In this document: positions 1,898 through 39,775 of the stretch, piece by piece
How positions within the stretch are numbered: position 1 is the first letter of the stretch
How the letters are laid out: every line of letters begins with the position of its first letter
Assembly (NCBI GenBank): GCA_030685215.1
Contig: JAUXQB010000278.1
Location: forward strand, 2,599-66,598
Direction of reading: 5' to 3'
Length of the DNA: 64,000 bases
Origin: Actinomycetota bacterium
GTDB lineage: Bacteria > Actinomycetota > Acidimicrobiia > Acidimicrobiales > Ilumatobacteraceae
Notes under the pieces: generated by a model
The model's input: the letters and a program-made list of their open reading frames with translations, nothing else
Told to the model about the DNA's origin: nothing
The model's database searches: none
Program-made: the position numbers and the translations under genes

Positions 1898-2523
1898 CCG
1901 ACACGGTGGCCGCGTTCGACGTCGACGGCACGCTCACGGTGCGCGACTGCGTGAAGCCGTTCCTGCTGCGCGTCGGTGGCTGGCCGGCGGTGTCGCGCGC
2001 ACTGCTGCACAAGCCGGGTGCCACGCTCGGCGCCGCGGCCCGTCGAGATCGCGATCGGATGAAGGAACTGGTGGTGGGCGGCGTGCTGCGTGGCCGCAAG
2101 GTGGCGCACGTCGAGGCGTTGGGTGAGCAGTTCGCCGAGCAGGTGGAGGCCGGGTGGATGCGCGCCGACACGATGGGCCGGCTCCGCTGGCACCAACGTG
2201 CGGGCCACCGCATCGTGCTCGTCTCCGCCTCGCTCGGGCCCTACCTGCGGCCGCTCGGTCGCCGGTTGGGTGTCGACGACGTGCTCTGCGCCGAACCGCT
2301 GCGAGCGGGTGACGAGTTCGCCGACGGCCTCGACGGTGCCAACTGTCGTGCAGGGGAGAAGGTGCGGCGCCTCGATGCGTGGCTGGTGCTGCGACGCATG
2401 GAGGACGCCACCGTGTGGGCGTACGGCGACAGCGCCGGCGACCGCGAGTTGCTGGCCCGCGCGGACCACCCGCTGCTGGTCACCCGCACGTTGGTGTCGG
2501 CCGTGCCCTCGGGTTTCGAATGA
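1894..2523 (+). CDS. HAD-IB (SerB-like) family phosphatase
   Basis: ATG 1894 overlaps the aroA stop (ATGA). HAD motifs present: 'FDVDGTLT' (DxDGT), 'VLVSAS', 'YGDSAGDRELL'. Only the last 209 codons of track ORF 721..2523 are taken as real. Confidence 0.8.
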   Translation: MTDTVAAFDVDGTLTVRDCVKPFLLRVGGWPAVSRALLHKPGATLGAAARRDRDRMKELVVGGVLRGRKVAHVEALGEQFAEQVEAGWMRADTMGRLRWHQRAGHRIVLVSASLGPYLRPLGRRLGVDDVLCAEPLRAGDEFADGLDGANCRAGEKVRRLDAWLVLRRMEDATVWAYGDSAGDRELLARADHPLLVTRTLVSAVPSGFE

Positions 2524-3386
2524 TCCGCGCCATCGTCCGCGAAGCGCGGCCCAAGCAGTGGGCCAAGAACGTGCTCGTCTTCGCCGCGCCCGGCGCCGCC
2601 GGTGTGCTCGACAACTGGTCGTTCCTGTGGCGCACCATCCTCGCGTTCGTCGCGTTCTGCCTGGTCAGCAGCGGCACCTACTACTGGAACGACATCCACG
2701 ACGTGGAGGCCGACCGGCAGCATCCGACCAAGTCGAAGCGGCCCATCGCGAGCGGCACACTGCCCATCGGCGTGGCCAAGGTGGTCGGGTCGCTGATGCT
2801 GGGTGGCGGCATCGCACTCGCGTTCGGCCTGGGCTGGCAGATGGGCGTGGTGGCGCTCAGCTATGTCGTCCTCACCACGCTCTACAGCACGGTGCTCAAG
2901 CACGTCGCCGTCGTCGACCTGGTGGCTGTCGCCGCCGGTTTCGTGCTGCGCGCCATCGCCGGCGCCGTGGTCACCGACGTGAAGATGAGCACCTGGTTCG
3001 TGCTGTGCACGTCGTTCGGGTCGCTGTTCATCGTCACCGGCAAGCGGTTCGCCGAGCTGCGCGAGATGGGCGACAGCTCCGCCACGCGCGCGACGCTCGA
3101 CGACTACACGCTCCCGTTCCTGCAGACCGTGCTGTCGGTCGCCGTCGGTGCCACGCTCGTCACCTACTGCATCTGGGCGTTCGAGGTGCGTGAGGTGTCG
3201 GGCAGTTCGTGGCCGTTCTACGAGCTGTCGATCGTGCCGATGCTGACGGCGCTGCTGCGCTACACGCTCATCCTCGAGCAGGGCCACGGTGCCGCGCCGG
3301 AGGAGATCTTCGCTGCGGACCGCACGCTGCAGATCCTCGGCGTGGTGTGGGCGATCGTTTTCGGACTGGGAGTGTACGTAGGGTGA
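2520..3386 (+). CDS. ubiA: decaprenyl-phosphate phosphoribosyltransferase (DPPR synthase, UbiA superfamily, Rv3806c-like)
   Basis: ATG 2520 overlaps the HAD stop (ATGA). 'EARPKQWAKNVLVFAAP...YYWNDIHDVEADRQHPTKSKRPIASG' matches the Rv3806c-type signature. Multi-TM. Confidence 0.88.
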   Translation: MIRAIVREARPKQWAKNVLVFAAPGAAGVLDNWSFLWRTILAFVAFCLVSSGTYYWNDIHDVEADRQHPTKSKRPIASGTLPIGVAKVVGSLMLGGGIALAFGLGWQMGVVALSYVVLTTLYSTVLKHVAVVDLVAVAAGFVLRAIAGAVVTDVKMSTWFVLCTSFGSLFIVTGKRFAELREMGDSSATRATLDDYTLPFLQTVLSVAVGATLVTYCIWAFEVREVSGSSWPFYELSIVPMLTALLRYTLILEQGHGAAPEEIFAADRTLQILGVVWAIVFGLGVYVG

Positions 3387-3391
3387 GCAGC

Positions 3392-4135
3392 ATGCGATCG
3401 TTCGACGAGACGTTGGCGGCAGTCGACGGTGTCGATGGGTGGATGAGTCCGGATCAGGCCGCACGGCTGTACGCCGCGGCGGCCGCCACGCACGCCGGCG
3501 ACACCATCGTCGAGATCGGCAGCTTCCGTGGTCGCAGCACCATCGTGCTCGCCAGCGCCGCCCCGGCGGGGGTCGAGGTCGTCGCCATCGACCCCCACGC
3601 CGGCAACGATCGCGGTCCGCAGGAGATCGAGGGCTTCGCCGAGGCCGCGGCCACCGACCACGACGTGTTCAACGCGAACCTGGCTGCTGCCGGAGTCGCC
3701 GATCGAGTGCGCCACGTCCGCGCGTTCAGCGATGTCGCCCACGACGAGGTGCCTGGCGAGCCGGCGGTGCTGTACGTCGACGGCGCGCACCGGTACGCGC
3801 CGGCACGGGCCGACATCCGCGACTGGGGCCGCCGCGTACGGCCGGGTGGCACGTTGCTCATCCACGACTCGTTCTCGTCGCTCGGTGTCACGCTCGCGAT
3901 CGCACGCGAGCTGATGTTCGGCGGTCGTTGGCGCTACGTCGGCCGTGCCCGATCCCTCACCGAGTACTGCGCCGACCTCGACGGCACCTGGCGCAGTCGC
4001 GCCGGCAATGCCGCCCGCCAGCTTGCCCAGGTGCCGTGGTTCGTGAAGAACCTGCTGTTGAAGGTGCTCATCACCGTGAGGCTCGGTGGCGTGCTGCAGC
4101 GCATCACCGGCCGCGAACCGGAATGGCCGTACTAG
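3392..4135 (+). CDS. class I SAM-dependent methyltransferase (Methyltransf_24-like)
   Basis: ATG 3392 lies 6 nt after the ubiA stop. Motifs 'WMSPDQAARLY', 'IVEIGSFRGRST', 'LYVDGAHRY', 'GGTLLIHD'. The 3' end overlaps the dprE1 start by 13 nt. Confidence 0.75.
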   Translation: MRSFDETLAAVDGVDGWMSPDQAARLYAAAAATHAGDTIVEIGSFRGRSTIVLASAAPAGVEVVAIDPHAGNDRGPQEIEGFAEAAATDHDVFNANLAAAGVADRVRHVRAFSDVAHDEVPGEPAVLYVDGAHRYAPARADIRDWGRRVRPGGTLLIHDSFSSLGVTLAIARELMFGGRWRYVGRARSLTEYCADLDGTWRSRAGNAARQLAQVPWFVKNLLLKVLITVRLGGVLQRITGREPEWPY

Positions 4136-5496
4136 TGCCGTCGGCTCGTCGTCTGCTCACCGGCTGGGGTCGCACGAACGCCACCGTGGCGGAGGTGCTC
4201 GAACTGCCCAACCACGAGGTGCCCGCCGCGCTCAAGGAAGCCGGCGATCGAGGCGCGCTGGTGCGCGGACTGGGTCGCAGCTACGGCGATGCTGCGCAGA
4301 ACGCCGGCGGGCTGGTGATGCGGCTGCTCGGCTCGGCACACCAGTCGGTGGTCGACTCGGCGGCGGCAACGGTCACTGTGCCAGCCGGCGTGAGCATCGA
4401 CGATCTGTTGCGCGTGATCGTGCCGCGCGGGTTCTTCGTCCCGGTCACCCCCGGCACCCGGTTCGTCACCATCGGCGGCGCCATCGCCAGCGACATCCAC
4501 GGCAAGAACCACCACGTCGAAGGGTCGTTCGGCAACCACGTCGCGGCGCTCACGCTGCTGCTCGCCGACGGCACGCAGGTGGTCGTCGGTCCCCACCTGC
4601 AGCCGGAGCTGTTCTGGGCCACCGTCGGCGGCATGGGCCTCACCGGGGTCATCCTCGACGCCACCGTGCGCCTGCTGCCGATCGAGACCAGCCGCATGTC
4701 GGTCGACACGCAACGTGTGCCGGATCTCGACTCGCTGTTCACCGCGATGGCGGAACACGACGACGACTACCGCTACAGCGTCGCCTGGATCGATCCGCAG
4801 GCGAAGGGTCGTTCGCTCGGTCGCAGCGTGCTCAGCCGCGGCGACCACGCACGCCTCGACCAGCTGGGGCCGCGCGAGGCCATCGATCCGCTGGCGTACG
4901 GCGCCAAGCAGCTGGTCTCGATGCCGCCGCTCATCCCGCCGATGGGCGTCATCAACCACGCCACCGTCGCCGCGTTCAACGAGATGTGGTACCGCAAGGC
5001 ACCACGCCACCGTGAGGGCGAGCTGCAGACCATCGCCGGCTACTTCCACCCGCTCGACATGGTCGGCAAGTGGAACCGCATCTACGGCTCCAAGGGCATG
5101 CTGCAGTACCAGTTCGTCGTGCCGTTCGGTGAGGAGGAGACGATGCGAACGGTGATCGAGCGCCTCTCGGCGAGCGGCACCGCCAGCTTCCTCGCAGTGC
5201 TGAAGCGCTTCGGCCCCGGGAGCCAGGCGCCGCTCAGCTTCCCCGCCCCGGGCTGGACGCTGGCGCTCGACGTGCCCGCCGGTTCCAGCGGTCTCGGCGG
5301 CATGTTGCACAGCCTCGACCGCCTGGTGCTCGACGCCGGCGGTCGCCACTACTTCGCCAAGGACTCCGTCACCACTCCCGACGCCATCCGTCGTGGGTAC
5401 CCGCGCCTCGCCGAGTGGAAGGCCGTGCGCGACGGCGTCGACCCCACCGGCGTGTGGCAGAGCGACCTCTCCCGCCGCCTCGGCCTCACCGACTGA
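4123..5496 (+). CDS. dprE1: decaprenylphosphoryl-beta-D-ribose 2'-oxidase (FAD)
   Basis: 'LTGWGRT...RGLGRSYGDAAQN', 'GGAIASDIHGKNHH', 'LQYQFVVP' and 'FGPGSQAPLSFPAPGW' are colinear with M. tuberculosis Rv3790. ATG 4123 is in frame within track ORF 3439..5496. Confidence 0.92.
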   Translation: MAVLVPSARRLLTGWGRTNATVAEVLELPNHEVPAALKEAGDRGALVRGLGRSYGDAAQNAGGLVMRLLGSAHQSVVDSAAATVTVPAGVSIDDLLRVIVPRGFFVPVTPGTRFVTIGGAIASDIHGKNHHVEGSFGNHVAALTLLLADGTQVVVGPHLQPELFWATVGGMGLTGVILDATVRLLPIETSRMSVDTQRVPDLDSLFTAMAEHDDDYRYSVAWIDPQAKGRSLGRSVLSRGDHARLDQLGPREAIDPLAYGAKQLVSMPPLIPPMGVINHATVAAFNEMWYRKAPRHREGELQTIAGYFHPLDMVGKWNRIYGSKGMLQYQFVVPFGEEETMRTVIERLSASGTASFLAVLKRFGPGSQAPLSFPAPGWTLALDVPAGSSGLGGMLHSLDRLVLDAGGRHYFAKDSVTTPDAIRRGYPRLAEWKAVRDGVDPTGVWQSDLSRRLGLTD

Positions 5497-5510
5497 AAGA
5501 TCACCCACTC

Positions 5511-6272
5511 ATGGACAACGCGCTCGGCGAACCTCAGACCATCCTGCTGCTCGGCGGCAACAGCGACATCGGCCTCGCCATCGTGCGCGAGCTGCTCAGC
5601 CCGAACGCGCGCACGGTGGTGCTCGCGTGCCGCGACACGGGCAAGGGCGAGCAGGCAGCTGCCGGGCTGCGCCACGACCGGCTGGCAGTGCACGTGGTGC
5701 AGTTCGACGGCGCGGCCTCGAACACGCACGAAGCGCTGGTTCGCTCGATCGGCGAGCAGTACGGCGACATCGACCTCGCGATCATCGCGTTCGCGTTGCT
5801 CGGCGATGGCGAGGCCACGTCGAAGGATGTCGCCGCTGCCACCGAGGTGGCCGCGGTCAACTTCACCGGCGTGATGTCGGCCACCATCGCGGTGGCGAAC
5901 CGCATGCGCGTGCAGGGCCACGGTGCCATCGTGATGCTCAGCAGCGTGGCCGGCGAACGAGTGCGCGCGGCCAACGCCGTCTACGGCGCCACCAAGGCCG
6001 GCATCGACGGCTTCGCGCAGGGCCTCGGCGACGAACTCGCCGGCGAGGGGGTGCACATGCTGGTCGTGCGCCCGGGTTTCGTCCACTCGGCGATGACCGC
6101 CGGGCTGAAGGCCGCCCCGTTCGCCACCACGCCGGAGGCCGTCGCGGCTGCCACCGCGAAAGGCCTGCGTTCGAAGCGGCGCACGGTGTGGGCGCCGGGC
6201 ATCCTGCGCGTCGTGTTCATGACGCTGCGTCACGTGCCCGGCCCCATCTGGCGACGCCTGCCCCTCGGCTGA
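5511..6272 (+). CDS. dprE2: decaprenylphosphoryl-2-keto-ribose reductase (SDR)
   Basis: 'PQTILLLGGNSDIGLAI', 'IVMLSSVAGERVRAANAVYGATKAG' and 'VVRPGFV' are colinear with Rv3791. ATG 5511 is 15 nt after the dprE1 stop. Confidence 0.9.
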   Translation: MDNALGEPQTILLLGGNSDIGLAIVRELLSPNARTVVLACRDTGKGEQAAAGLRHDRLAVHVVQFDGAASNTHEALVRSIGEQYGDIDLAIIAFALLGDGEATSKDVAAATEVAAVNFTGVMSATIAVANRMRVQGHGAIVMLSSVAGERVRAANAVYGATKAGIDGFAQGLGDELAGEGVHMLVVRPGFVHSAMTAGLKAAPFATTPEAVAAATAKGLRSKRRTVWAPGILRVVFMTLRHVPGPIWRRLPLG

Positions 6273-6296
6273 CCCGCAGGCTGCCACCCTCCGGCC

Positions 6297-6388: not shown

Positions 6389-6399
6389 CCCGCAGCGAG

Positions 6400-6913: not shown

Positions 6914-8743
6914 TCAGCCTTGGGCGGCGCGTTCGGCGAGCTCGGCGTCGAAGTCGGCGCGGCGTTGCGTGCCGATGCCGATGCCGGCCGGGCTGATGCC
7001 GTCGCCGACGTCGCACTTCTGGTAGAGCAGCACGAGCGCGTCCTCGTAGTTGCCGACCAGGCAGAACTGGTCGGCGACCACCTGGTTGGGAGCGTCGCTG
7101 CCGAACTCGCTCGACGCGTTCGGCTCGAACCAACCGGTCCAGAAGTTGGTGAGGATCAGCCAGTCGGCGCTGGCGACGTCGTCGGCGAGGCGTGAGCCTT
7201 CCTGGTCGGCGAGGCCCGGGTCCATCTCGATGAAGAACGTCGCCGGCGTGAGCTCGGGGAACATGTAGTAGAACGCGGCGTCGCTGTAGATGGTGCGGCT
7301 GAGATCGGCCGGGCCGACCAGCAATCGCTCGCCGGGCGACGACAGCCGGTCGAGATCGTCGATGGCCGCCTGGCTGGCCGACTGCAGCGCCTGGTTACCG
7401 AAGAAGAACCGCCGGTGGTCGCGGGCGACCTCGAAGCCACCCGGCTTGTTGCCCACGGCAACTCGCGTCTGCAGCAGGTAGTACCGGTACGTGAAGAACG
7501 GGTTGACCACGAACATCGTCGCCGCGATGGCCGCACCCGCCACGAACCAGGCGTGGCGGGTGAGACGAGGTGCGATGCGAGGCACGAGCTCGACGAGAAG
7601 GCATGGGAGCAGCGCGAACGACACGCACGACCCCCACGCGAGGTGCGTGCTGTCGGGTCGCTGCATCGCCTGCGGAAGCATGCCGAGACCGAACAGCGAA
7701 GCGCCCATCAGCACCGTCAGGCGCGCCGAGCCACCATCTACGCGACGCAGGAGCCGCCACGCGATGAGAGGCAGCGCGATGGCGACGATGATGACCACGA
7801 AGAACCACACGAACAGCTGCTGGCTGGCAGCGAGCGACGGGAAACCCCACCACGGTGCGTCGAGCGGACCCTCGGCCACCGCCTGCAGGGCACCGTCGAT
7901 CTGGTTCCAGCCCGGCGGCCTCGGCAGTTCGCGGCCGGGGCGCAGATCGAACACCGGCTCGAGGAACATTCCGCGCACGCTGGGGCCGATGCCGGCCATG
8001 GCCAGGTGCACCAGGAACGGGATGGAGCCGACCGCCACGCCGATGGCCGCGGGCTTCCACAGCCGGCGCGTCTCGGCCCGCGGGTTGCCCTGCCACAGCA
8101 GCCAGCCGTGCACCAGGCCGAGCGCGAGCACCAGATCGGGGCGATAGCCGAGGGCGAACCCGACCAGCATTCCGGCGCCGGCGAGCGCCCGCACACGTGC
8201 ACGGCCGTCGGTGTGGAGTGCACGGATGCCGAGCACCACGCTCCACAGGCCGAGCGCGATGGCACCTTCCCACGCGAGTGCCGACAGCCCGATGGGAGTG
8301 AGCACCAGCATCGTGACGGTGACGGCGCTGACCACGGCCGTGCGGCGGCCCCAGGCCCGAGCCAGGGTGTAGAGGGCGAAGATGATGCCCAGGTGCTGCA
8401 GCAACCCGAACACCCGCTGGGTCTCGAGCGTGTCGCCGAACAGCCAGTACCAGCCCGCGAGCACGTGCAGGGAGAACGGCCCGTAGAGGTGGAGGAAGTC
8501 GACGTTGGGCACGTCGCCCTCCAGCACTCGCTGCGGGAAGGTGAGCATGAACCCTTCCTCCATCGAGCTGCCGGTGGCCAGGAACAGCCCGCGCAGCGGG
8601 ATGGCGATGACGACCGCGACCATGGCGAGCGCCAGCACCGACCGGAGATCGGGGCGGCGTGTGCGCCATCCGCCGAACGCTCCGCCGAGGACGAAGGGGA
8701 GATCGGTGCCGGCGGGCGACGGCGTAGCGGTGGCTGCAGGCAC
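6914..8743 (-). CDS. multi-pass membrane protein with C-terminal soluble domain; candidate GT-C glycosyltransferase (family unassigned)
   Basis: About 12 hydrophobic segments. The first loop carries acidic 'SSMEEGFMLTFPQRVLEGDVPNVDFLHLYGP'. GTG 8743 is preferred because a TAGAGT hexamer lies 7 nt upstream. The ATG at 8815 would overlap the divergent GT4 start. Confidence 0.6.
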   Translation of the reverse strand: MPAATATPSPAGTDLPFVLGGAFGGWRTRRPDLRSVLALAMVAVVIAIPLRGLFLATGSSMEEGFMLTFPQRVLEGDVPNVDFLHLYGPFSLHVLAGWYWLFGDTLETQRVFGLLQHLGIIFALYTLARAWGRRTAVVSAVTVTMLVLTPIGLSALAWEGAIALGLWSVVLGIRALHTDGRARVRALAGAGMLVGFALGYRPDLVLALGLVHGWLLWQGNPRAETRRLWKPAAIGVAVGSIPFLVHLAMAGIGPSVRGMFLEPVFDLRPGRELPRPPGWNQIDGALQAVAEGPLDAPWWGFPSLAASQQLFVWFFVVIIVAIALPLIAWRLLRRVDGGSARLTVLMGASLFGLGMLPQAMQRPDSTHLAWGSCVSFALLPCLLVELVPRIAPRLTRHAWFVAGAAIAATMFVVNPFFTYRYYLLQTRVAVGNKPGGFEVARDHRRFFFGNQALQSASQAAIDDLDRLSSPGERLLVGPADLSRTIYSDAAFYYMFPELTPATFFIEMDPGLADQEGSRLADDVASADWLILTNFWTGWFEPNASSEFGSDAPNQVVADQFCLVGNYEDALVLLYQKCDVGDGISPAGIGIGTQRRADFDAELAERAAQG

Positions 8744-8813: not shown

Positions 8814-10007
8814 ATGTCTGCCGTTCCGCCGACCATCGAGGAGCTGGCCGCCGAGATGATCGGGGTCGGCTGCCGCCGAGTGCACGTGCTGGCGTGGCGC
8901 GACCTCGACGATGCCGACGCCGGCGGTTCCGAGGTGCACGCCGACCACTTCATGCGCCGATGGGCCGAGGCCGGACTCGACATCACCCACCGCACCTCGT
9001 TCGCGCAGGGCCTGCCCACGCACGCCGAGCGCCACGGCTATCACGTGGTGCGCAAGGGCAGCCGGTACAGCGTGTTCCCCCGTGGCGTGGCCCGTGAGCT
9101 GCGCGAACGCCGGAACTACGACGCGCTCGTCGAGATCTGGAACGGCGTGCCGTGGCTGAGCCCGGTGTGGTGTCACAAGCCGCGCATCACGTTCCTGCAC
9201 CACGTGCACGGTCCGATGTGGGACCAGCTGCTGCCCCGGCCGTTCGCGTTCATGGGCCGTGCGGTGGAGGCCCGGCTGGCGCCGCCCTTCTACCGGCGCA
9301 CGCTCACGCTCACCCCGAGCGACGCCACCCGTGACGAGTTGTTGCACCTCGGCTTCCGGCACGACCGCGTGGTGGCCGTGAACAACGGCGTCGACGAGGC
9401 GTTCCACCCCGGAGGCGAGCGGGCAGCGGTGCCGACGGTGGTATCGGTGGGGCGGCTCGCGCCGGTGAAGCGCCAGGACCACCTCATCGACGAAGCGGTG
9501 GTGGCCAAGCGGCGCGTGCCCGACCTGCAGCTGTACATCGTGGGGGAGGGCCCGTTGAAGCCGGTGCTCGAGCAACGCATCGAGCAGCACGGCGCGCACG
9601 ACTGGATCCATCTCGCCGGCCGGCTCAGCGACGACGACCTGATCGCGCTGTACCAGCGGGCGTGGCTCGTCAGCAGTGCATCGCTGGCCGAAGGGTGGGG
9701 GCTCACGATGACCGAGGCGGCGGCGTGCGGCATTCCCGCAGTGGCCACCGACGTCAACGGCCACCGCAGCAGCGTGGTCGACGGTGTCACCGGCGTGCTG
9801 GTGCCGCTCGAATGTTTGGGCGACGCGATGGCCGACGTGCTGCTCGACGCACCCCGCCGTCAGGCGATGGCCGACGCCGCGCTGGCCCGCGCCCGCACGC
9901 TCACCTGGGAAGCGTCGGCACGCGGCGTGCTGCTCGGCCTGCACGGCCAGGTGATGGCCAAGGCCCGCGCCCGCTCGCGCGGCAGCCGACGTTCGCCCCG
10001 CCCCTGA
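8814..10007 (+). CDS. GT4-family glycosyltransferase (Glycos_transf_1)
   Basis: 'VHVLAWRDLDDADAGGSEVHA' N-domain and 'SSASLAEGWGLTMTEAAACGIPAVATDVNGHRSSV' (the EX7E region). Alternative ATG at 8856. Confidence 0.85.
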   Translation: MSAVPPTIEELAAEMIGVGCRRVHVLAWRDLDDADAGGSEVHADHFMRRWAEAGLDITHRTSFAQGLPTHAERHGYHVVRKGSRYSVFPRGVARELRERRNYDALVEIWNGVPWLSPVWCHKPRITFLHHVHGPMWDQLLPRPFAFMGRAVEARLAPPFYRRTLTLTPSDATRDELLHLGFRHDRVVAVNNGVDEAFHPGGERAAVPTVVSVGRLAPVKRQDHLIDEAVVAKRRVPDLQLYIVGEGPLKPVLEQRIEQHGAHDWIHLAGRLSDDDLIALYQRAWLVSSASLAEGWGLTMTEAAACGIPAVATDVNGHRSSVVDGVTGVLVPLECLGDAMADVLLDAPRRQAMADAALARARTLTWEASARGVLLGLHGQVMAKARARSRGSRRSPRP

Positions 10008-14926: not shown

Positions 14927-14928
14927 GC

Positions 14929-34192: not shown

Positions 34193-34196
34193 CCGC

Positions 34197-37100
34197 TCAG
34201 CGCTCGCTGTCGCGAGCGAGCAGTGCGGCGGTGAGGAGCAGCGTGACCACCAGAAGGCCGGGACCGTGCAGCTTCTCCCAGATGCCCGGCCACGCGGCGT
34301 TGGCGGGGTAGCGGCCGGCGAGCTGCCGTTGCACCATCCGGGCTCCGATCGCAGCCACGACGAGCAGTGCGGCCGCGCCCGCCACCGCGAGGCGGCGAGT
34401 GGCGACGATCGCTGCGGCCGGCACCACGGCGACCAGCGCCATGTCGGGCGACACGACCAGCGCGGTGAGCGCCACCAGCACTGCAGCGCTCACCACCGCC
34501 GTTCGCCACGATGTGGGTTGCAGCATCGCTCGGTCGAACGAGGGTGGCGCCGCGGACCACTCCTGGGTCGACCCCCCTGCGTCTGTGCACTCTCGCTCGC
34601 TCGGCGAGCGGAAGTGCTCAGACGCCGAGGTGGAGGTGGGGGCGGGCCGAGGGGAGACGGGGAGCGGGCGCCGGCGGCGACCCACCGCGAGGATCACGCA
34701 CGCGATCACGGCGACGGCCGACAGCACGAGGCCGATGGTCACCGGCAGCTGTGCCTGCCACTCGATCTGCACCACCGTCGGTTGGGTGCTCGGTGGCAGC
34801 CACCATCCGTTGAAGCCGCCACTGATCTGGGTAGGTGCTGCGAGCACGGTGCCGTCGATGGAGGCTTCCCACCCGTCGTTGAGACCCTCGCCCATGATGA
34901 GCCAGCAGCCCTGCGGGCACGCGGCCACGGTGGCCGTGCGGCTGAGCCGGGTGCGGGTGACGTCGACGGTGGGCGCGGCGGTGTAACCCATCATGTCGGT
35001 GCCCGCGGTGTGGTCGAAGCCGGCGGCGCCGTCGTCGAGCACCACCTGGTTCACGTCGATGCCGCCGACCAGTCCGTTGGCAGTCGCGAGCCGGTGCGAC
35101 CCTGCCGTGAGCGCGAGTGGCTCGCAGGTGGCGACGTTGATCGTCTCGCCCGCCGCGATGGCCGCACGATCCGCGGCGGAGATCTGCAGACCGACGGGTC
35201 GTCCGTCGAGGGTGAGCAGATCGGTCGCGCAGTCACCTGCCGCCGGAGGCTCGAGCGTCGCGACTGCGGCGATGGCGGGTGCCGTGATCTCGTGGATGGC
35301 CACTGGCAACGTGGTGACCTCGCCGAAGCGACGGTCGATCGTGGTGCGGGCTTCGATGCCGGTGACGGTGAGCGTGAACGAGTCGCCGACGAGCGCTGCC
35401 GGCAACCGGACGGTGCTGCGACCTTCCGAGTCGGGTGGCGGCACGGGGAGGTCGACGGCCGTGGTGCCGGCCGACCCGACCGAGACCGTGGTGATGATCG
35501 AGTGCTGAGCATCGACGCTCTGCTGCAGCACGAGCTCGGTGAACGGAGCCTCGGCCGCTGCGGTCTGGTCGAGCGGGATGGTGAGCTGCGAGCCGATCGC
35601 GTCGACGAACGGAGAGGTCCACGTCGTCGATGCATCGCCGTCGGCCGCGAACCTGCCCCGCGCCGACGGCACACCGGCGAGCCGCCGATTCGCCGTCGCG
35701 CCGGCCACGCCGTCGAGCGCGTCGAGCACCGCGTCGCCGGCTCGGTCGTTGTGCTGCAGCGTGACCGTGGCGACGAACTCGCCGTCGGCGGGTGTCGTGA
35801 ACTCGCGCTGCAGCGTCGGCTCCGGGTCGCTGCGCCAGCGGTTGCGCGGATCCACGCGTAGCCGGGTGAGCACCACGGCGAACGGAGCGTCGTCGGCGAC
35901 GGGCAGGGCGGTGACCGGCAGGCGCACGATCTCGGTGTGCGTGCCGACTCCCAGTTCGGCGAACCCGACCGCCGACGGACCGGGGTCGGTGCCGCCGACG
36001 CGTGGCGCCACCCCGGTGATGGTGATGGTGACCGCCGCGTCGTCGGGCAGTTCGACCTCCTGGCCGGGTGAGGCCAGCGACCGTTCGTCGAGCACGAGGT
36101 CGATGGGCACCGACGACGTGGCGGTGGTGATGCGCACGGACGAGATCATCCGATTCGCGTTGGTGCCCTGTGGCTGCAGCAGGCGCAGCGAACCCTCGGT
36201 GGCCGACAGGGTGACGAAGTGTCCGATCGGGTTGTCGCGGTCGGCGACCACCCACGCTGTGCTGGTGTCGCCGTCGACGGCCATCGCGGGACGCTGCTCG
36301 GGACGGTAGGCGTACGGTTCGCCGTAGCCGCTGGCACGCACCACCAGCCCACTGTCGAGCGTGGCCACGGTCTGGTCGTCGGAGCGCACGTCGGCCGGGT
36401 CGGCGGCGAACACCGGCAGGCGTTGGTCGCCCTCGTCGAGGCGCAGCACGTCGCTGCCCGCGCCGCCGACCTCCGTGAATCCGTTGACGTCCTGCGAGCT
36501 GCGCCAGTGGTGCGCGCGGTCGCGGTTCGAGTCGGTGAGGATGACGACGGCCCCGCGCAGCTGCTCGCCGGCCACGTCGCCCTCGACGAGGTCGGCCGCG
36601 TAGAGCACCGCCTCGTTGCCGTGGAGGAGGCCCGCACCGGCCGCGTCGATGATGCCGTCGCCGCTGCCCACCAGGATGACGACCTGCTCGCTCGCGCGCA
36701 CGATGGCCACCGGGTCGTCGACGTCGACCAGTTCCACCGGGGCCAGCGGGGTGCCGATGCCGTCGCCGCTGAGCGCGGTCTCGTCGACCATCGGGATGTC
36801 GGCCACGTTGACGGTTGGCTCCCCGTACGCCACCGGCGCGTCGAGCCCATCGGGCCGATCGGCGAAGGTGGCCGACACCTCCTCCGGGCGCGGTGTGCGG
36901 AAGCGGTCGAAGGCGAGGTCGTTGGCCAGCCAGATGGTGTCGACGCCGAGCGCCCGCGCCACGGCCGCGATGGCGTCGGGGTCGAGCGTGTGGTCCTGCA
37001 CGCGGTCGTCGAGCGCGTAGAGCAGGTCCATCACTCCCGGCGAGCCCAGTGGCAGCAGGTCGCGGGTGACGAGCGGCTTGGTGGTGAGACCGGGCAGGGG

Positions 37101-38510
37101 AGGGTCGACCGTGTAGCCCCAGCGGAACGCGCCGAACTCGGAACCCGGCAGCTGCAGCACACGGAACTCGGAGCTGGTGGAGGAGAGCGCGTCGGCCGCG
37201 TCGAGCCAGGCAGCGGGCGGCGACTGGTCGCGCTCGAGGGCAGGGTCGACGATGTTGCCGTCGAACAGGGCCGGCAGGTTCACCAACGCCAACAGCACCA
37301 CCAGCACCGGTGCCAGCATCCGCAGGCGCCAGCGAGTGGCGCCGACCGCGGCGACCAGCGCGCCGGCACCCAGCGCGAGCCCGAAGTTCGACATCGGCAG
37401 TGCCCGCGTGCTGCTGCGGATGGCGAGCGCGAGTGAACTGCGAGAGTTCTCGGCCAGCGGCGACATCAGCGGGGACGCATCGAGGATGGGGTGCACTCCG
37501 ACCGCGAGCACGATGCCGACCAGCACCAGCAGTGCCGCGTACCGCCGCTGCGACCAGCGCGTGACGGCGAGCCCGCCCACGCACACCAGGAGCAAGGCGA
37601 AGCTGACGGCAATGGCGCGGCCGGACTCCATGTAGGTCTGTGACGCCGTGGTGGTGAACGCGTACGGATCGCGCACGTAGAACAGCCAGTACCCCATGCC
37701 GCGCAGCGTCTCGGTCGATGCAGAGGTGAGCGAGGTGGCCTGCAGGCTCTCGCTGAACGCGAGCACGTCGGCGCCGTGGATGCCCTGCGCGCGGAGCATG
37801 AACACCCACCACAGCGAGACGGCCACGGCGAGCCCGCCGATGCGCAGCGCAGCGCCGGTGGCGCGCTGCCACGTGACCGTGCGCTGGGCGATTGCGTGCA
37901 GCAGCCAGAGCACCGGCGCGGGCGCGATCATCATCACCGCGGTGGCGTTGACCGCGCTGCACGACAGCAGCACCAACGCCATCAGCGCGGGATGTCGCCA
38001 GCGGTGGTCGCTGGTGGCGGCACGGATGGTGAGCCCGACCAGCCAGCCGACTGCCGCCCACGGCAGCAGCATCGCACTGGTGCGGGAAGCGTAGGGGAGG
38101 ATGTACGGCGACAGCTGATAGACGACGGCAGCGACCAGCGCTGCCGACTTCGGCAACCCCAGCAGCCGTGAGGCCCAGTACACGCCGAGTGCGGCCAGGA
38201 ACAGCAGCGTGCCCAACCACAGCCGGTGCGCGAGCCAGTCGGGCAGACCGATGGTCTCGCACACCCAGTACCACGGGCCCTGCGGCCACAGGTACGCAAT
38301 GGTCTGGTGCGGCACCCAGCCGCCGAACTGGCGGGTGTCCCAGGTGTAGGGCGCATCGCCGATCAGGCGGCCGGGGTCGAGGTACAGGTACAGCTTGGTG
38401 TCGGCGGTCATCCGGCCGGGCTTGGTGAGCAGCAGCGGGACGTAGGCGATGAGCGCCAGCAGGGCGACGGTCCGTCGTGAGAGACGGGCCGTGAGGCGCC
38501 CGTTGCTCAC
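34197..38510 (-). CDS. aftD: AftD-like alpha-(1->3)-arabinofuranosyltransferase family protein (GT-C, DUF3367-type)
   Basis: GTG 38510 overlaps the upstream stop (GTGA). 'MTADTKLYLYLDPGRLIGDAPYTWDTRQFGGWVPHQTIAYLWPQGPWYW' is the AftD N-terminal signature. The large periplasmic region has two 'DGD(T/A)ST(A/T)W' discoidin/CBM-like motifs, and C-terminal TM helices are present. 1437 aa. Confidence 0.85.
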   Translation of the reverse strand: MSNGRLTARLSRRTVALLALIAYVPLLLTKPGRMTADTKLYLYLDPGRLIGDAPYTWDTRQFGGWVPHQTIAYLWPQGPWYWVCETIGLPDWLAHRLWLGTLLFLAALGVYWASRLLGLPKSAALVAAVVYQLSPYILPYASRTSAMLLPWAAVGWLVGLTIRAATSDHRWRHPALMALVLLSCSAVNATAVMMIAPAPVLWLLHAIAQRTVTWQRATGAALRIGGLAVAVSLWWVFMLRAQGIHGADVLAFSESLQATSLTSASTETLRGMGYWLFYVRDPYAFTTTASQTYMESGRAIAVSFALLLVCVGGLAVTRWSQRRYAALLVLVGIVLAVGVHPILDASPLMSPLAENSRSSLALAIRSSTRALPMSNFGLALGAGALVAAVGATRWRLRMLAPVLVVLLALVNLPALFDGNIVDPALERDQSPPAAWLDAADALSSTSSEFRVLQLPGSEFGAFRWGYTVDPPLPGLTTKPLVTRDLLPLGSPGVMDLLYALDDRVQDHTLDPDAIAAVARALGVDTIWLANDLAFDRFRTPRPEEVSATFADRPDGLDAPVAYGEPTVNVADIPMVDETALSGDGIGTPLAPVELVDVDDPVAIVRASEQVVILVGSGDGIIDAAGAGLLHGNEAVLYAADLVEGDVAGEQLRGAVVILTDSNRDRAHHWRSSQDVNGFTEVGGAGSDVLRLDEGDQRLPVFAADPADVRSDDQTVATLDSGLVVRASGYGEPYAYRPEQRPAMAVDGDTSTAWVVADRDNPIGHFVTLSATEGSLRLLQPQGTNANRMISSVRITTATSSVPIDLVLDERSLASPGQEVELPDDAAVTITITGVAPRVGGTDPGPSAVGFAELGVGTHTEIVRLPVTALPVADDAPFAVVLTRLRVDPRNRWRSDPEPTLQREFTTPADGEFVATVTLQHNDRAGDAVLDALDGVAGATANRRLAGVPSARGRFAADGDASTTWTSPFVDAIGSQLTIPLDQTAAAEAPFTELVLQQSVDAQHSIITTVSVGSAGTTAVDLPVPPPDSEGRSTVRLPAALVGDSFTLTVTGIEARTTIDRRFGEVTTLPVAIHEITAPAIAAVATLEPPAAGDCATDLLTLDGRPVGLQISAADRAAIAAGETINVATCEPLALTAGSHRLATANGLVGGIDVNQVVLDDGAAGFDHTAGTDMMGYTAAPTVDVTRTRLSRTATVAACPQGCWLIMGEGLNDGWEASIDGTVLAAPTQISGGFNGWWLPPSTQPTVVQIEWQAQLPVTIGLVLSAVAVIACVILAVGRRRRPLPVSPRPAPTSTSASEHFRSPSERECTDAGGSTQEWSAAPPSFDRAMLQPTSWRTAVVSAAVLVALTALVVSPDMALVAVVPAAAIVATRRLAVAGAAALLVVAAIGARMVQRQLAGRYPANAAWPGIWEKLHGPGLLVVTLLLTAALLARDSER

Positions 38511-39775
38511 GGAATGGCCCCGAAGACCCCGTAGAGCGCGGTGAGGCCGACCAGTCCTGCCGAGCAGGCGCCGACGACGTACGGCCACCACTCACGCTCG
38601 TGTTCCTCGTTGTGGTCGAACCAGAGTGCCGCGGCGATGAGCAGTGGGAACGCGGTGTACAGGAACCGCGGGCGGGCGGTGACCGTGCTGGGCAGCAGCA
38701 TCAGCAGCAGCACGACGGCGATGTACGCGTTGATCATTGCCGGCAGGCGGTGCTTCCATAGGAAGTAGAGCAGCAGCACCAGAGTGACCACACTGACGGC
38801 GGTGATGGTGTCGCTGGGCGAGGTGAACGGGTGGGTGAAGGCCTTCAGCGTGCGGCGGATGGCGGTGAGCCCGAAGCTGGTGCCTTCGCCCCACGCCTCG
38901 GTCTGCACGCGGAACCAGACACCGCGTTCGCCGGTGTGCCCGTCGAGCCACAGCATGAAGCCGAGGAAGCCGAGCGGCGCCAGCAGGGGAGCGATGAGCG
39001 AGCGCCATTCGCGTCGCTCGCGTATCGCCAGGAACGACGCCACCGCGCACGCGGCGACGAGCGCGACACCGTTCGGGCGCGTGGCGGTGCCGATGGCCGC
39101 CAGGATGCCGGCCAGCAGCCACTGACGGCGCAGCAACAGCAGCATGCACCCAGCTGCCAGCGTGAGCAGCAGTGCTTCCGTGTAGGCGAACGACAGCACG
39201 AAGCTGCCGGGGAACAACGCCATCAGGATCATCGTGCGCTCGCCGATGCGCACGCCGAACAGCTCCCGCGCCAGCAGGCCCGCCAGGAACACCGCGGCAG
39301 CACCGAGCAGCAGGTTGGTGAACACGGCGGCGATGCTGTCGCCGCCGGGCAGCACCCAGTCGACCGCGCGCACGAGCATCGGATAGGTGGGGAAGAACGC
39401 CGCCCTCGCGTCGCTCACCTCGTAGGTGACGTTCGGCTGCACCGTCGTCGGGTAGCCGGAGCGGGCGATGCGCAGGTACCACACGCCGTCCCACGAGGTG
39501 AGCACGTCGAGCATGGGGCGCAGCGCGCTCTTCGGGATGGGCTTGTTGGCGTAGTGCGGGTCCGCGAACGGAGCGTTGGGGAACTCCGCGATGCGCAGGT
39601 TCTCGTCGGCCCTCAGCTCGGCGGCCACGATGGCTGCTCCGATGGCGACGCAGAGGCGGGAGAACAGGTAGACCAGCCCCGCCTTGCGCAGCGCTCGGCG
39701 CCAGGCCAGACGTGCTGCGGTGTGATCGGGTGCGGGGCTGCTGGGGCTGGTGATGGGCGTGGTGGTGGTGGTCAT
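38507..39775 (-). CDS. GT-C membrane glycosyltransferase, PIG-V/GT76-like mannosyltransferase family
   Basis: 'WDGVWYLRIARSGY...AFFPTYPML' is the PIG-V-type first-loop signature. About 9 TM. ATG at 39775. Confidence 0.65.
   Translation of the reverse strand: MTTTTTPITSPSSPAPDHTAARLAWRRALRKAGLVYLFSRLCVAIGAAIVAAELRADENLRIAEFPNAPFADPHYANKPIPKSALRPMLDVLTSWDGVWYLRIARSGYPTTVQPNVTYEVSDARAAFFPTYPMLVRAVDWVLPGGDSIAAVFTNLLLGAAAVFLAGLLARELFGVRIGERTMILMALFPGSFVLSFAYTEALLLTLAAGCMLLLLRRQWLLAGILAAIGTATRPNGVALVAACAVASFLAIRERREWRSLIAPLLAPLGFLGFMLWLDGHTGERGVWFRVQTEAWGEGTSFGLTAIRRTLKAFTHPFTSPSDTITAVSVVTLVLLLYFLWKHRLPAMINAYIAVVLLLMLLPSTVTARPRFLYTAFPLLIAAALWFDHNEEHEREWWPYVVGACSAGLVGLTALYGVFGAIP

What the first reader, a model, noticed from the sequence alone, without database searches (positions are those of the whole stretch)
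2520..39775. 37-kb envelope-glycan locus: complete lipid-arabinose donor pathway plus eight GT-C-type membrane proteins and four lipid-sugar-synthase GT2s
Seen directly:
- The DPA pathway genes are present (DPPR synthase, phosphatase candidate, DprE1, DprE2).
- There is one AftD-like giant GT-C protein and one PMT_2/ArnT-like protein.
- There is one PIG-V-like protein and five further multi-pass proteins with acidic first loops (6914, 16111, 17919, 19769, 23345).
- Four GT2 genes are each placed next to GT-C candidates (15377 with A and B; 21703 with C; 26367 with 23345; 29713 divergent from 30486).
- Tailoring functions are a GT4, four methyltransferase domains and two AT3 acyltransferases.
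- I saw no Wzx/Wzy, no ABC exporter and no Emb/AftA/AftB/AftC-like sequences.

Inference: this is a modular synthase-plus-GT-C arrangement. It would build an Araf-containing, O-methylated and O-acylated polymer outside the membrane from DPA plus up to four other polyprenyl-phosphate sugars. The gene content does not look like the canonical mycobacterial arabinogalactan/LAM cluster, so the product may be an undescribed glycan or lipoglycan.
Basis: partly seen in the sequence, partly recalled or inferred. Interest (0 to 1): 0.8.

Follow-up and report, generated by a model that had tools for sequence, protein, structure and literature searches.

The report
Acidimicrobiia arabinose-lipid multi-GT-C envelope glycan locus
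This is a real, conserved 38-kb cell-envelope sugar-polymer gene cluster of Acidimicrobiia, distant relatives of the tuberculosis bacterium. It combines the mycobacterial lipid-arabinose donor pathway with eight membrane glycosyltransferases, five of them from unannotated families, and its product is unknown.

Summary
Window 1894-39775 encodes 29 genes.

- **Donor pathway:** three genes pass NCBI's curated cut-offs as DPPR synthase, DprE1 and DprE2. A HAD phosphatase gene overlaps the synthase gene by 4 bp.
- **GT-C candidates:** all eight are supported. One is an AftD homologue and two match PMT_2/PIG-V. The three paralogues g17-19 and g22 have no Pfam or NCBIfam family, but confident AlphaFold models match only GT-C enzymes at the top. 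g9 links to PMT_2 by profile comparison.
- **Accessory genes:** four GT2s most resemble polyprenyl-phosphate sugar synthases (Dol-P-Man synthase, ArnC, GtrB). Also present are one GT4, four methyltransferase domains and two AT3 acyltransferases.
- **Missing:** no Emb/AftA-C, Glf, Wzx/Wzy or glycan ABC exporter.

It also merged two genes (g22 and an AT3).

All 79 related loci come from Acidimicrobiia (Ilumatobacteraceae and relatives) and share the core synteny. This is therefore a class-wide envelope locus, not the Corynebacteriales AG/LAM cluster.

Most likely, lipid-linked sugars are made and methylated in the cytoplasm, and a glycan or lipoglycan containing arabinofuranose is assembled outside the membrane. 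All chemistry is inferred. I rate it a new variant of a known kind.

The parts
1894..2523 (+). g3, HAD-IB phosphatase (209 aa). Candidate DPPR 5-phosphatase.
   Evidence: PF12710 E 1e-32. TIGR01490 127.7 bits, cut-off 98.3. DxDGT and GDSxxD motifs are present. The gene overlaps the UbiA start by 4 bp. A HAD phosphoribose phosphatase is fused to the PPPRS in Citrobacter (PMC11127046).
2520..3386 (+). g4, decaprenyl-phosphate phosphoribosyltransferase (UbiA family, 288 aa).
   Evidence: NF008978 328 bits, cut-off 207. PF01040.
3383..4135 (+). g5, Methyltransf_24 SAM methyltransferase inside the DPA operon.
   Evidence: PF13578 E 2e-19. MT24 is adjacent to DprE1 in 7 related loci.
4186..5496 (+). 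g6, DprE1 (FAD oxidase).
   Evidence: NF053785 587 bits, cut-off 500.
5511..6272 (+). g7, DprE2 (SDR reductase).
   Evidence: NF053786 305 bits, cut-off 250.
6914..8638 (-). g9 ('M9'), divergent PMT_2-like GT-C (574 aa). Invariant EE motif after TM1.
   Evidence: 8 of 26 family members hit PMT_2, best E 2e-8. hhalign to the g17-19 family 74%, E 3e-5 over 407 columns, and to the g28 family 71%. E27/E28/D47 are invariant. Adjacent to DprE2 in 14 loci and to GT4 in 20.
8814..10007 (+). g10, GT4 cytoplasmic glycosyltransferase. Candidate primer or anchor glycosylation.
   Evidence: PF00534 E 6e-32. PDB relatives are GtfA, MshA, PimB' and PimA.
11321..12361 (-). g12 ('Epi1'), GalE-like extended SDR.
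   Evidence: PF01370 E 1e-39. TGxxGxxG and YxxxK motifs conserved in 34 of 34. Best PDB relatives are NDP-sugar 4-epimerases.
12358..13464 (-). g13 ('Epi2'), extended SDR (368 aa after start correction).
   Evidence: PF01370 E 3e-25. Start and motifs. Overlaps neighbouring genes by 4-5 bp.
13460..14932 (-). g14, GMC-family FAD oxidoreductase (490 aa, no signal peptide).
   Evidence: PF00732 and PF05199. PDB relatives are cellobiose dehydrogenase, pyranose oxidase and cholesterol oxidase. More than 73% identical across 120 Ilumatobacteraceae clusters.
14929..15267 (-). g15 ('s112'), small partner protein of the GMC enzyme. No known family.
   Evidence: No Pfam or NCBIfam hit. Adjacent to GMC in 33 loci. 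Conserved YxRLxRSL motif.
15377..16114 (+). g16 ('GT2a'), Dol-P-Man synthase/Ppm1-like soluble GT2.
   Evidence: PDB 5mlz (Pyrococcus DPMS) E 1.9e-32, then ArnC. PTYNE, DDxSPDGT and MDxDFSHDP motifs are conserved.
16111..17916 (+). g17 ('A'), GT-C of an unannotated family.
   Evidence: Paralogue of g18, 36-39% identity. Follows GT2a directly, here and in most related loci.
17919..19790 (+). g18 ('B'), GT-C of an unannotated family (623 aa).
   Evidence: AlphaFold pLDDT 88, pTM 0.91. Foldseek top hits are ArnT (E 1.5e-4), AglB, AftA, ALG12/9, STT3, DPY19 and AftB. D44 is conserved in the first loop. The family has 6374 clusters at 50% identity.
19769..21706 (-). g19 ('C'), GT-C, paralogue of g18.
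   Evidence: 30% identity over 581 aa, E 2e-57.
21703..22599 (-). g20, ArnC/GtrB-like GT2 with C-terminal TM helices.
   Evidence: PF00535. PDB relatives are ArnC only. TM segments at 228-290.
22596..23333 (-). g21, Methyltransf_23 methyltransferase.
   Evidence: PF13489 E 8e-16.
23345..25222 (-). g22, GT-C with a C-terminal lectin-like beta-sandwich. Unannotated family.
   Evidence: AlphaFold pLDDT 90, pTM 0.88. Foldseek hits are AglB (E 4e-6), PglB, STT3, EmbA/B, AftB, AftA and PimE; residues ~465-605 match galectin-type folds. hhalign to the g28 PMT_2 family 91%. D54 and E75 are invariant.
25219..26370 (-). g23, AT3 membrane O-acyltransferase.
   Evidence: PF01757 E 6e-33.
26367..27842 (-). 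g24, GT2 (lipid-sugar-synthase-like) fused to a Methyltransf_23 domain.
   Evidence: PF00535 and PF13489. Adjacent to a g22-like gene in 6 loci.
27968..29098 (+). g25, AT3 membrane O-acyltransferase.
   Evidence: PF01757 E 4e-27.
29091..29669 (-). g26, small 5-TM protein of unknown role.
   Evidence: Only a sub-threshold Wzy_C hit, E 0.0017. TM profile.
29713..30405 (-). g27 ('GT2d'), soluble DPMS/ArnC/GtrB-like GT2.
   Evidence: PDB relatives are 5mlz, ArnC and GtrB. Divergent from the PMT_2 gene here and in 5 other loci.
30486..31757 (+). g28, PMT_2 GT-C. The start is either 30486 (ATG) or 30537 (GTG).
   Evidence: PF13231 51.7 bits, cut-off 26.1. Conserved NDS motif in the first loop.
31778..34192 (+). 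g29, membrane SpeE-like methyltransferase-fold protein with TM bundles at both ends. Membership in the pathway is uncertain.
   Evidence: PF01564 32.7 bits, cut-off 22.9. Not GT-C-like by hhalign.
34197..38510 (-). g30, full-length AftD homologue (1437 aa).
   Evidence: PF11847 E 5e-82. Aligns at residues 8-1288 with M. abscessus AftD 6W98.
38507..39775 (-). g31, PMT_2/PIG-V-like GT-C, co-operonic with AftD. The start is either 39628 or 39775.
   Evidence: PF13231 33 bits, cut-off 26.1; PF04188 23.1 bits, cut-off 22.4. The AftD-PIGV pair recurs in 3 loci.

Best explanation
This is a class-wide Acidimicrobiia locus for building a cell-envelope glycan, most likely a lipoglycan or wall-associated heteropolysaccharide, on the outer face of the membrane from polyprenyl-phosphate-linked sugars.

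Shown at the level of family and fold:
- Cytoplasmic enzymes for the lipid-arabinose donor are present. UbiA adds phosphoribose to polyprenyl phosphate, a HAD phosphatase can remove the 5-phosphate, and DprE1/DprE2 epimerise C2.
- Four GT2s of the Dol-P-Man synthase/ArnC/GtrB type are present and can make further polyprenyl-P-sugars. g16 carries the Ppm1/DPM1 motifs.
- Eight GT-C enzymes are present: an AftD homologue, two PMT_2/PIG-V-like proteins, a divergent PMT_2-like protein, three paralogues of a new family, and one new-family protein with a lectin-like domain.

Inferred:
- The GT4 primes a lipid or glycan acceptor in the cytoplasm.
- Because SAM is cytoplasmic, the methyltransferases that sit beside or are fused to the donor synthases (g5, g21, g24) methylate sugars at the lipid-donor stage.
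- The donors are flipped by an unidentified flippase.
- The GT-Cs polymerise and branch the glycan outside the membrane.
- The two AT3 proteins O-acylate the glycan there.
- The GMC flavoenzyme, two SDRs and the small protein probably remodel a sugar precursor for the A/B/C-family GT-Cs.
For: - DPA genes pass equivalog cut-offs, and the HAD gene overlaps the UbiA gene.
- The closest solved relatives of the GT2s are polyisoprenyl-phosphate glycosyltransferases only at the top: DPMS E 2e-32, ArnC, GtrB.
- GT-C status: Pfam for g28, g30, g31. Fold for g18 and g22. Paralogy for g17 and g19. Profile evidence for g9.
- Conserved acidic residues lie in the first external loop of each new family.
- Genes are packed in overlapping operons.
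- Core synteny and the GT2/GT-C pairings recur in 79 Acidimicrobiia loci.
- No Wzx/Wzy, glycan ABC exporter, WecA-type initiator or LCP ligase is in the window. This fits a pathway of the GT4 plus GT-C, LM/LAM type.
- Precedents: mycobacterial AG/LAM assembly and three-component pentofuranose systems (PMC11127046). AftD homologues were already noted in Ilumatobacter (bioRxiv 10.1101/2019.12.22.885152).
Against: - No product has been observed, and no Acidimicrobiia envelope sugar data could be retrieved.
- No flippase (GtrA, MATE or Wzx) was identified.
- The GT2s fall far below the NCBIfam equivalog cut-offs, so their sugar specificities are unknown.
- The Foldseek TM-scores are modest (0.33-0.41 normalised to the query).
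- The AftD homologue has Pro where M. abscessus AftD has the conserved E475.
- Gene neighbourhoods differ between clades, so donor-to-GT-C assignments are ambiguous.
- The modules could serve several acceptors rather than one polymer.
Confidence: 0.62

Rival explanations
1. The locus is a glycosylation island rather than a pathway for one polymer. Several independent three-component systems (lipid-sugar synthase plus GT-C) each add side-chain sugars to different pre-made acceptors, such as a wall polysaccharide, a lipoglycan or proteins whose backbones are encoded elsewhere.
For: - The GT2/GT-C pairs behave as separable modules whose presence and order vary between loci.
- No initiating phosphoglycosyltransferase, polymerase or exporter is in the window.
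- Known three-component systems are post-polymerisation decorators (PMC11127046).
Against: - The core (DPA genes, M9, GT4, GMC cassette, GT2a-A) keeps its order across family-level distances.
- AftD-type and multi-paralogue GT-C sets are typical of polymer builders in mycobacteria.
- A GT4 is embedded in the core.
Confidence: 0.25
2. The main role is protein O-glycosylation. The PMT_2-type GT-Cs (g9, g28, g31) and the lipid-linked Man/Araf donors would glycosylate secreted or surface proteins, as in actinobacterial Ppm1/Pmt O-mannosylation or Pseudomonas TfpW pilin arabinosylation.
For: - PMT_2 hits for g28, g31 and the g9 family.
- g16 is Ppm1/DPMS-like.
- GT2a sits directly beside M9 in 5 loci.
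Against: - PMT_2 is a broad GT-C Pfam family that also covers ArnT-like lipid and glycan transferases.
- The PMT (GT39) family itself was not hit.
- The AftD homologue, the lectin/CBM-like domain on g22 and the AT3 acyltransferases point to a polysaccharide substrate.
- No target protein gene is evident in the window.
Confidence: 0.1
3. The locus is simply the orthologue of the canonical Corynebacteriales arabinogalactan/LAM cluster.
For: It shares UbiA, DprE1, DprE2 and AftD.
Against: - All relatives are Acidimicrobiia.
- No Emb, AftA, AftB, AftC, Glf, GlfT or PAP2 phosphatase family hits.
- The gene order is different.
- Five GT-Cs belong to families without any annotation.
Confidence: 0.03

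Closest known systems
Mycobacterial/corynebacterial arabinan pathway (Rv3806c UbiA, Rv3807c, DprE1/DprE2, AftA-D, EmbA-C)
   Same: - The same lipid donor route is present: DPPR synthase, DprE1 and DprE2 at equivalog level.
- A full-length AftD homologue is present.
- Assembly is extracytoplasmic and uses GT-C enzymes.
   Different: - The source is Acidimicrobiia, not Corynebacteriales.
- A HAD phosphatase stands in for the PAP2-type phosphatase.
- A methyltransferase sits inside the DPA operon.
- There is no Emb/AftA/AftB/AftC, no Glf/GlfT galactan genes and no GtrA-like Rv3789.
- The AftD homologue lacks the Glu of the conserved D474/E475 pair.
LM/LAM mannan pathway (PimA/PimB' GT4s, Ppm1, PimE/MptA/MptB/MptC GT-Cs)
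   Same: - A GT4, a Ppm1/DPMS-like synthase and several GT-C enzymes occur without a Wzx/Wzy or ABC exporter.
- PimE is among the fold matches of g22.
   Different: - No sequence-level membership in the PimE or Mpt families was found.
- No PI-synthase or PIM acyltransferase genes are in the locus.
- The lipid anchor is unknown.
Three-component periplasmic glycosylation systems (GtrA/B/C; ArnC/ArnT; Citrobacter PPPRS-HAD / MATE / GT136 with SDR epimerase ORF13, PMC11127046; PpgS/Rv3779)
   Same: - Lipid-sugar synthase genes are paired with GT-C genes.
- A HAD phosphatase is linked to a UbiA-type synthase.
- GalE-like SDRs sit in the locus.
- g22 has the same layout as GT136: about 11 TM helices, a loop domain and a C-terminal beta-rich carbohydrate-binding-like domain.
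   Different: - At least four or five modules are stacked in one locus together with an AftD.
- No flippase gene was recognised.
- A GMC flavoenzyme is added.
- GT136 membership was not tested because no sequence was available here.
Streptomyces DPA-dependent arabinofuranosylation of lipopeptides (arabimalamide cluster, PMC13110770)
   Same: DPA pathway genes plus a membrane glycosyltransferase occur outside Corynebacteriales.
   Different: - That is a natural-product gene cluster with NRPS/PKS genes and a single transferase.
- This locus has none of those genes and is conserved class-wide as an envelope locus.

Membership tests
DPA (decaprenyl-phospho-arabinose) biosynthesis pathway | Polyprenyl-phosphate 5-phosphoribosyltransferase (Rv3806c type) | tested here: met
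   g4 scores 328 bits against NF008978, cut-off 207.
DPA (decaprenyl-phospho-arabinose) biosynthesis pathway | DprE1 FAD oxidase and DprE2 SDR reductase | tested here: met
   g6 scores 587 bits against NF053785, cut-off 500. g7 scores 305 bits against NF053786, cut-off 250. The two genes are adjacent in 18 related loci.
DPA (decaprenyl-phospho-arabinose) biosynthesis pathway | DPPR 5-phosphatase (PAP2-type Rv3807c in mycobacteria) | tested here: inconclusive
   No PAP2 gene is present. A HAD-IB hydrolase with intact motifs overlaps the UbiA start. HAD phosphoribose phosphatases are known from Citrobacter (PMC11127046). The HAD-UbiA adjacency was seen in only 1 of 7 related loci that hold UbiA, and this count is limited by the flank length.
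DPA (decaprenyl-phospho-arabinose) biosynthesis pathway | Actual formation of lipid-linked D-Araf | not testable with these tools
   This needs radiolabelled PRPP assays or lipid mass spectrometry.
AftD (PF11847 / DUF3367, GT-C arabinofuranosyltransferase) | N-terminal GT-C domain, long periplasmic region and C-terminal TM bundle, about 1400 aa | tested here: met
   PF11847 E 5e-82 covers profile positions 6-641 of 661. phmmer aligns residues 8-1288 to 6W98 residues 11-1295. TM segments lie at both ends.
AftD (PF11847 / DUF3367, GT-C arabinofuranosyltransferase) | Conserved putative catalytic residues E251, D474 and E475 (M. abscessus numbering, bioRxiv 10.1101/2019.12.22.885152) | tested here: inconclusive
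   The equivalents of E251 and D474 are kept. E475 is Pro in g30 and in 6 Acidimicrobiia homologues. The chain numbering is offset by 3.
GT-C fold glycosyltransferases | Multi-pass membrane domain whose predicted structure matches solved GT-C enzymes | tested here: met
   g18: the top 9 Foldseek PDB hits are all GT-C, with ArnT at E 1.5e-4. g22: 12 hits at E<=1e-3 are all GT-C. TM-scores are only 0.33-0.41. g9 was not modelled but links through hhalign and PMT_2 hits.
GT-C fold glycosyltransferases | Conserved acidic residue(s) in the first extracytoplasmic loop | tested here: met
   g17-19 family: D44 is invariant in A2 and at least 90% conserved in A1. g22 family: D54 and E75 are invariant. 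g9 family: E27, E28 and D47 are invariant. g28: conserved NDS motif. g30: conserved DTKL motif.
Emb / AftA / AftB / AftC arabinosyltransferase families | Sequence membership (Pfam or NCBIfam models) | tested here: not met
   No hit at E<=0.01 for any protein in the window. AftA, AftB and EmbA/B appear only as distant fold matches.
Polyisoprenyl-phosphate glycosyltransferases (GT2: DPM1/Ppm1, GtrB, ArnC, PpgS) | GT2 catalytic domain closest to this subfamily, with its DxD/DxSH motifs | tested here: met
   Best PDB relatives: g16 to DPMS 5mlz, E 1.9e-32; g27 to DPMS, ArnC and GtrB; g20 to ArnC. g16 family motifs are conserved.
Polyisoprenyl-phosphate glycosyltransferases (GT2: DPM1/Ppm1, GtrB, ArnC, PpgS) | Equivalog-level identity with a characterised synthase (sugar specificity) | tested here: not met
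   All NCBIfam scores are far below cut-offs. The best is AglJ at 122 bits against a cut-off of 325.
Gtr-type three-component systems | Dedicated small flippase (GtrA/SMR-like, MATE or Wzx) | tested here: not met
   No GtrA, MATE or Wzx family hit in the window. g15 and g26 are unassigned small proteins.
CAZy GT136 (Citrobacter ORF12 pentofuranosyltransferase) | Sequence similarity to ORF12 | not tested
Only the domain layout of g22 resembles it (PMC11127046).
Canonical Corynebacteriales AG/LAM gene cluster | Corynebacteriales host and synteny (dprE1-dprE2-aftA-embCAB; aftB-ubiA-Rv3807c-glfT2-glf) | tested here: not met
   All relatives are Acidimicrobiia. The gene order is different and the galactan genes are absent.

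The most novel reading that the evidence does not exclude
The GMC flavoenzyme, its small partner protein and the two GalE-like SDRs form a second route for epimerising lipid-linked pentofuranose. The route is not homologous to DprE1/DprE2. It would convert polyprenyl-P-ribofuranose (or DPA) into another pentofuranose donor such as Xylf, or the never-observed Lyxf, and this donor would be used by the unannotated A/B/C GT-C family.

Grounds:
- In a second Acidimicrobiia clade the genes lie as UbiA - small ORF - GMC - SDR - SDR - A - C on one strand, with no dprE1/E2 in the 17-22 kb held.

If this is right, Acidimicrobiia carry a new kind of envelope pentofuranan made by a new GT-C family.
Probability: 0.2. 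Interest if true: 0.8.

Novelty: new variant of a known kind. Interest (0 to 1): 0.6.

Why it matters
- **An unknown envelope.** Acidimicrobiia are abundant in fresh water, sea water, soil and activated sludge, and no envelope-glycan description for them turned up in the literature searches here. This locus predicts that they make an arabinofuranose-containing, methylated and acylated surface glycan with the same lipid donor that is a validated drug target in tuberculosis.
- **Evolution of arabinan.** If confirmed, DPA/AftD-based arabinan chemistry would reach a deep-branching actinobacterial class. That bears on how the mycobacterial envelope evolved.
- **New enzyme families.** The locus defines at least three sizeable GT-C families with no Pfam or NCBIfam model. 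One of them has about 6400 clusters at 50% identity.
- **A candidate new pathway.** The GMC/SDR cassette is a candidate new lipid-sugar remodelling system.
- **Testable.** Cultured Ilumatobacter species and isolate IMCC26256 carry related loci, so the prediction can be tested directly.

Tried and rejected
- **Exact look-up of the window's EPSP synthase.** It is not on record, so the organism had to be inferred from relatives.
- **Profile searches against PDB sequences.** The g17-19 and g9 family profiles gave only noise. Fold comparison was needed instead.
- **hhalign of the g17-19 profile against single sequences.** Runs against g22, g9 and g30 gave nothing. Links appeared only with family-versus-family profiles, and AftD stayed unlinked by sequence.
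- **First genome scan.** A narrower alignment worked.
- **g15 as a GtrA-like flippase.** Rejected. It has no Pfam hit even at E<=1 across 13 members, and it lacks four clear TM helices.
- **g29 as a ninth GT-C.** Rejected by hhalign.
- **g26 as Wzy.** There is only a sub-threshold hit.
- **GMC homologue search.** It returned only close Ilumatobacteraceae proteins, so it could not show whether the cassette occurs in characterised organisms.
- **Literature.** Searches for Acidimicrobiia with DprE1 or arabinogalactan, and for Ilumatobacter whole-cell sugars, found nothing usable.
- **RNA genes.** Rfam and tRNA scans of the window were empty.
- **Secondary-metabolite reading.** Rejected. There are no NRPS/PKS genes and the locus is conserved class-wide.

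Full report
**Gene content.** The window has 70% G+C, so raw ORF lists are dominated by shadow ORFs. I called genes from third-position GC likelihood. This gave 53 genes, 29 of them between 1894 and 39775. Pfam and NCBIfam assign them as follows.

- g3: HAD-IB hydrolase.
- g4: UbiA-type decaprenyl-phosphate phosphoribosyltransferase (328 bits, cut-off 207).
- g5: Methyltransf_24.
- g6: DprE1 (587 bits, cut-off 500).
- g7: DprE2 (305 bits, cut-off 250).
- g9: a 574-aa multi-pass protein.
- g10: GT4.
- g12, g13: extended SDRs.
- g14: GMC oxidoreductase.
- g15: a 112-aa protein with no family.
- g16: GT2.
- g17, g18, g19: multi-pass proteins of about 600-645 aa with no family.
- g20: GT2 with C-terminal TM helices.
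- g21: Methyltransf_23.
- g22: a 625-aa multi-pass protein with no family.
- g23, g25: AT3 acyltransferases.
- g24: a GT2-Methyltransf_23 fusion.
- g26: a small 5-TM protein.
- g27: GT2.
- g28: PMT_2.
- g29: a membrane SpeE-like protein.
- g30: GT-C_AftD (E 5e-82).
- g31: PMT_2/PIG-V.

The flanks are aromatic amino-acid genes on the left and DNA-repair, fatty-acid, Opp-type transport and purine-type metabolism genes on the right. These set the borders. The corrections are the HAD gene lying just outside the stated start, '23345' being two genes, and the unmentioned GMC/SDR operon.

**GT-C status of the membrane proteins.**
- g17, g18 and g19 are paralogues, 30-39% identical.
- Their family has no Pfam or NCBIfam model, and every public homologue is named 'hypothetical'.
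- A profile of the family finds 6374 clusters at 50% identity (4996 at E<=1e-10) among 1.84 billion representatives.
- Sequence profiles find no solved relative. The AlphaFold model of g18 is confident (pLDDT 88, pTM 0.91). Its best Foldseek PDB matches are ArnT, AglB, AftA, ALG12, ALG9, STT3, DPY19 and AftB.
- g22 belongs to a second unannotated family. Its model (pLDDT 90) matches AglB, PglB, STT3, EmbA/B, AftB, AftA and PimE. It also carries a C-terminal beta-sandwich that matches galectin-type lectins. This is the layout described for GT136 and for the Emb carbohydrate-binding modules (PMC11127046).
- Family-versus-family hhalign links g22 to the g28 PMT_2 family (91%). It links g9 to both the g17-19 family (74%, 407 columns) and the PMT_2 family (71%), and links PMT_2 to the PIG-V-like family (76%).
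- Eight of 26 members of the g9 family hit Pfam PMT_2 directly.
- Each family keeps acidic residues in the loop after TM1.
- g30 aligns over almost its full length with M. abscessus AftD. It keeps the equivalents of E251 and D474 but has Pro for E475, as do six Acidimicrobiia homologues.
- g29 is not GT-C-like.

All eight GT-C candidates stand.

**Cytoplasmic enzymes.**
- The closest solved relatives of g16, g27 and g20 are polyisoprenyl-phosphate glycosyltransferases: Pyrococcus Dol-P-Man synthase (E 1.9e-32 for g16), ArnC and GtrB.
- g16 and its 45 relatives conserve the DPM1/Ppm1-type motifs. NCBIfam scores are far below equivalog cut-offs, so the sugars are unknown.
- The GT4 is generic.
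- Both SDRs have TGxxGxxG and YxxxK motifs that are conserved across their families. Their best solved relatives are NDP-sugar 4-epimerases.
- The GMC enzyme has no signal peptide. It resembles sugar- and sterol-oxidising GMC enzymes.

**Taxon and conservation.**
- Named homologues are all Acidimicrobiia: Ilumatobacteraceae, Acidimicrobiaceae and Microthrixaceae.
- A scan of one genome per species returned 79 loci, all from that class. They include Ilumatobacter MAGs and the isolate IMCC26256 (lineage).
- The nearest contig is 94% identical for g18. It is titled 'uncultured Bifidobacterium sp.', which looks like a mislabel.
- tblastn of the window's proteins against these loci shows a recurring core: UbiA-MT24-DprE1-DprE2, M9 (reverse), GT4, Epi1-Epi2-GMC-s112 (reverse), GT2a-A-(B/C), then GT2d/PMT_2 and AftD-PIGV.
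- Adjacency counts: GT2a next to an A/B/C gene in 37 loci; s112-GMC in 33; GMC-Epi2 in 31; M9-GT4 in 20; DprE2-M9 in 14; GT2-MT next to g22-like in 6; GT2d-PMT_2 in 5; AftD-PIGV in 3.
- Counts for distal genes are lower bounds, because only 10 kb of flank was held on each side.

**Mechanism.** The shown parts are family and fold assignments, operon structure and conserved synteny. From these I infer a pathway of the mycobacterial LM/LAM/AG type.
- Lipid-linked donors (DPA plus up to four others, one probably polyprenyl-P-mannose or another hexose) are made on the cytoplasmic face.
- They are methylated there by the methyltransferases that sit next to or are fused to the synthases. SAM is cytoplasmic, so this is the only simple place for O-methylation.
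- They are flipped by an unidentified protein.
- The eight GT-Cs use them to build and branch a glycan on a GT4-primed acceptor.
- The AT3 proteins add acyl groups outside.
- The absence of Wzx/Wzy, ABC exporter, WecA-type initiator and LCP ligase in the window fits a lipoglycan better than a wall-linked polymer. Those genes could still lie elsewhere in the genome.

**A lead beyond the finding.** In a second clade (L036, L055, and partly L029, L057, L076) the order is UbiA - a 100-aa homologue of g15 - GMC - Epi2 - Epi1 - A - C on one strand. No dprE1/E2 lies in the 17-22 kb held for L036 and L055. A GalE-like SDR converts undP-Ribf to undP-Xylf in Citrobacter (PMC11127046). The GMC/SDR cassette may therefore be a second lipid-pentofuranose epimerase route that feeds the new GT-C family. 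In the window the same cassette is instead divergent from GT2a, so its substrate is ambiguous. I put this reading at about 0.2.

**Comparison with known systems.**
- The DPA genes and AftD are members of known families. AftD homologues in Ilumatobacter were already listed by Tan et al. (bioRxiv 10.1101/2019.12.22.885152).
- DPA-dependent glycosylation outside Corynebacteriales is known in Streptomyces natural products (PMC13110770).
- The synthase plus GT-C module is the established three-component principle.
- What is new is the combination: a class-wide Acidimicrobiia locus that stacks these modules, three GT-C families without annotation, a methyltransferase inside the DPA operon, a GT2-MT fusion, a HAD in place of the PAP2 phosphatase, and the GMC/SDR cassette.
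- It is not the canonical AG/LAM cluster.

I rate it a new variant of a known kind, with interest 0.6.

**Limits.** No chemistry was or could be tested. Only two structures could be modelled, and their TM-scores are modest. Donor-to-transferase assignments, the acceptor, and whether there is one product or several all remain open.

Noticed in passing
L036 3231-11560; L055 224-11437: In a second Acidimicrobiia clade the genes lie as UbiA, a 100-aa homologue of window g15, GMC, Epi2, Epi1, an A-family GT-C and a C-family GT-C, all on one strand. No dprE1/E2 is in the stretch held. This hints that the GMC/SDR cassette acts on the UbiA product.
   Followed up: partly
window 34197-38510 (residue ~470 of g30): The AftD homologue and six Acidimicrobiia relatives read 'TVDPP' where M. 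abscessus AftD has the conserved D474-E475 pair. The Glu is replaced by Pro.
   Followed up: partly
window 6400-6777 and 10096-11169: Two glyoxalase/VOC-family genes sit between conserved locus genes. They have no counterpart in any of the 79 related loci, so they look like lineage-specific insertions.
   Followed up: partly
window 31778-34192: This 804-aa protein has a spermidine-synthase-like methyltransferase fold between two multi-TM bundles whose first helices look alike (LEIAYTRV and LIEISMIQRF), which suggests an internal duplication. Its role is unknown, and it was seen in only one related locus within the flank.
   Followed up: partly
L002 (CAZWCU010000096.1) and L013: The closest public contigs are titled 'uncultured Bifidobacterium sp.', although all their relatives are Acidimicrobiia. 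This is probably a taxonomic mislabel in the records.
   Followed up: no
window 42043-47706: An Opp/Dpp-type peptide ABC importer operon (two ATPases, two permeases, SBP_bac_5) lies in a stretch of lower G+C (0.65) and strong positive GC skew compared with the rest of the window.
   Followed up: no
window 59176-60369: A 397-aa gene with strong coding signal has no Pfam family. It lies next to ABC transporter genes.
   Followed up: no
window 13460-14932: The GMC oxidoreductase is far more conserved than the neighbouring GT-Cs. It is 73-94% identical across 120 clusters, against 30-60% for the GT-Cs, which implies strong constraint on this enzyme.
   Followed up: partly
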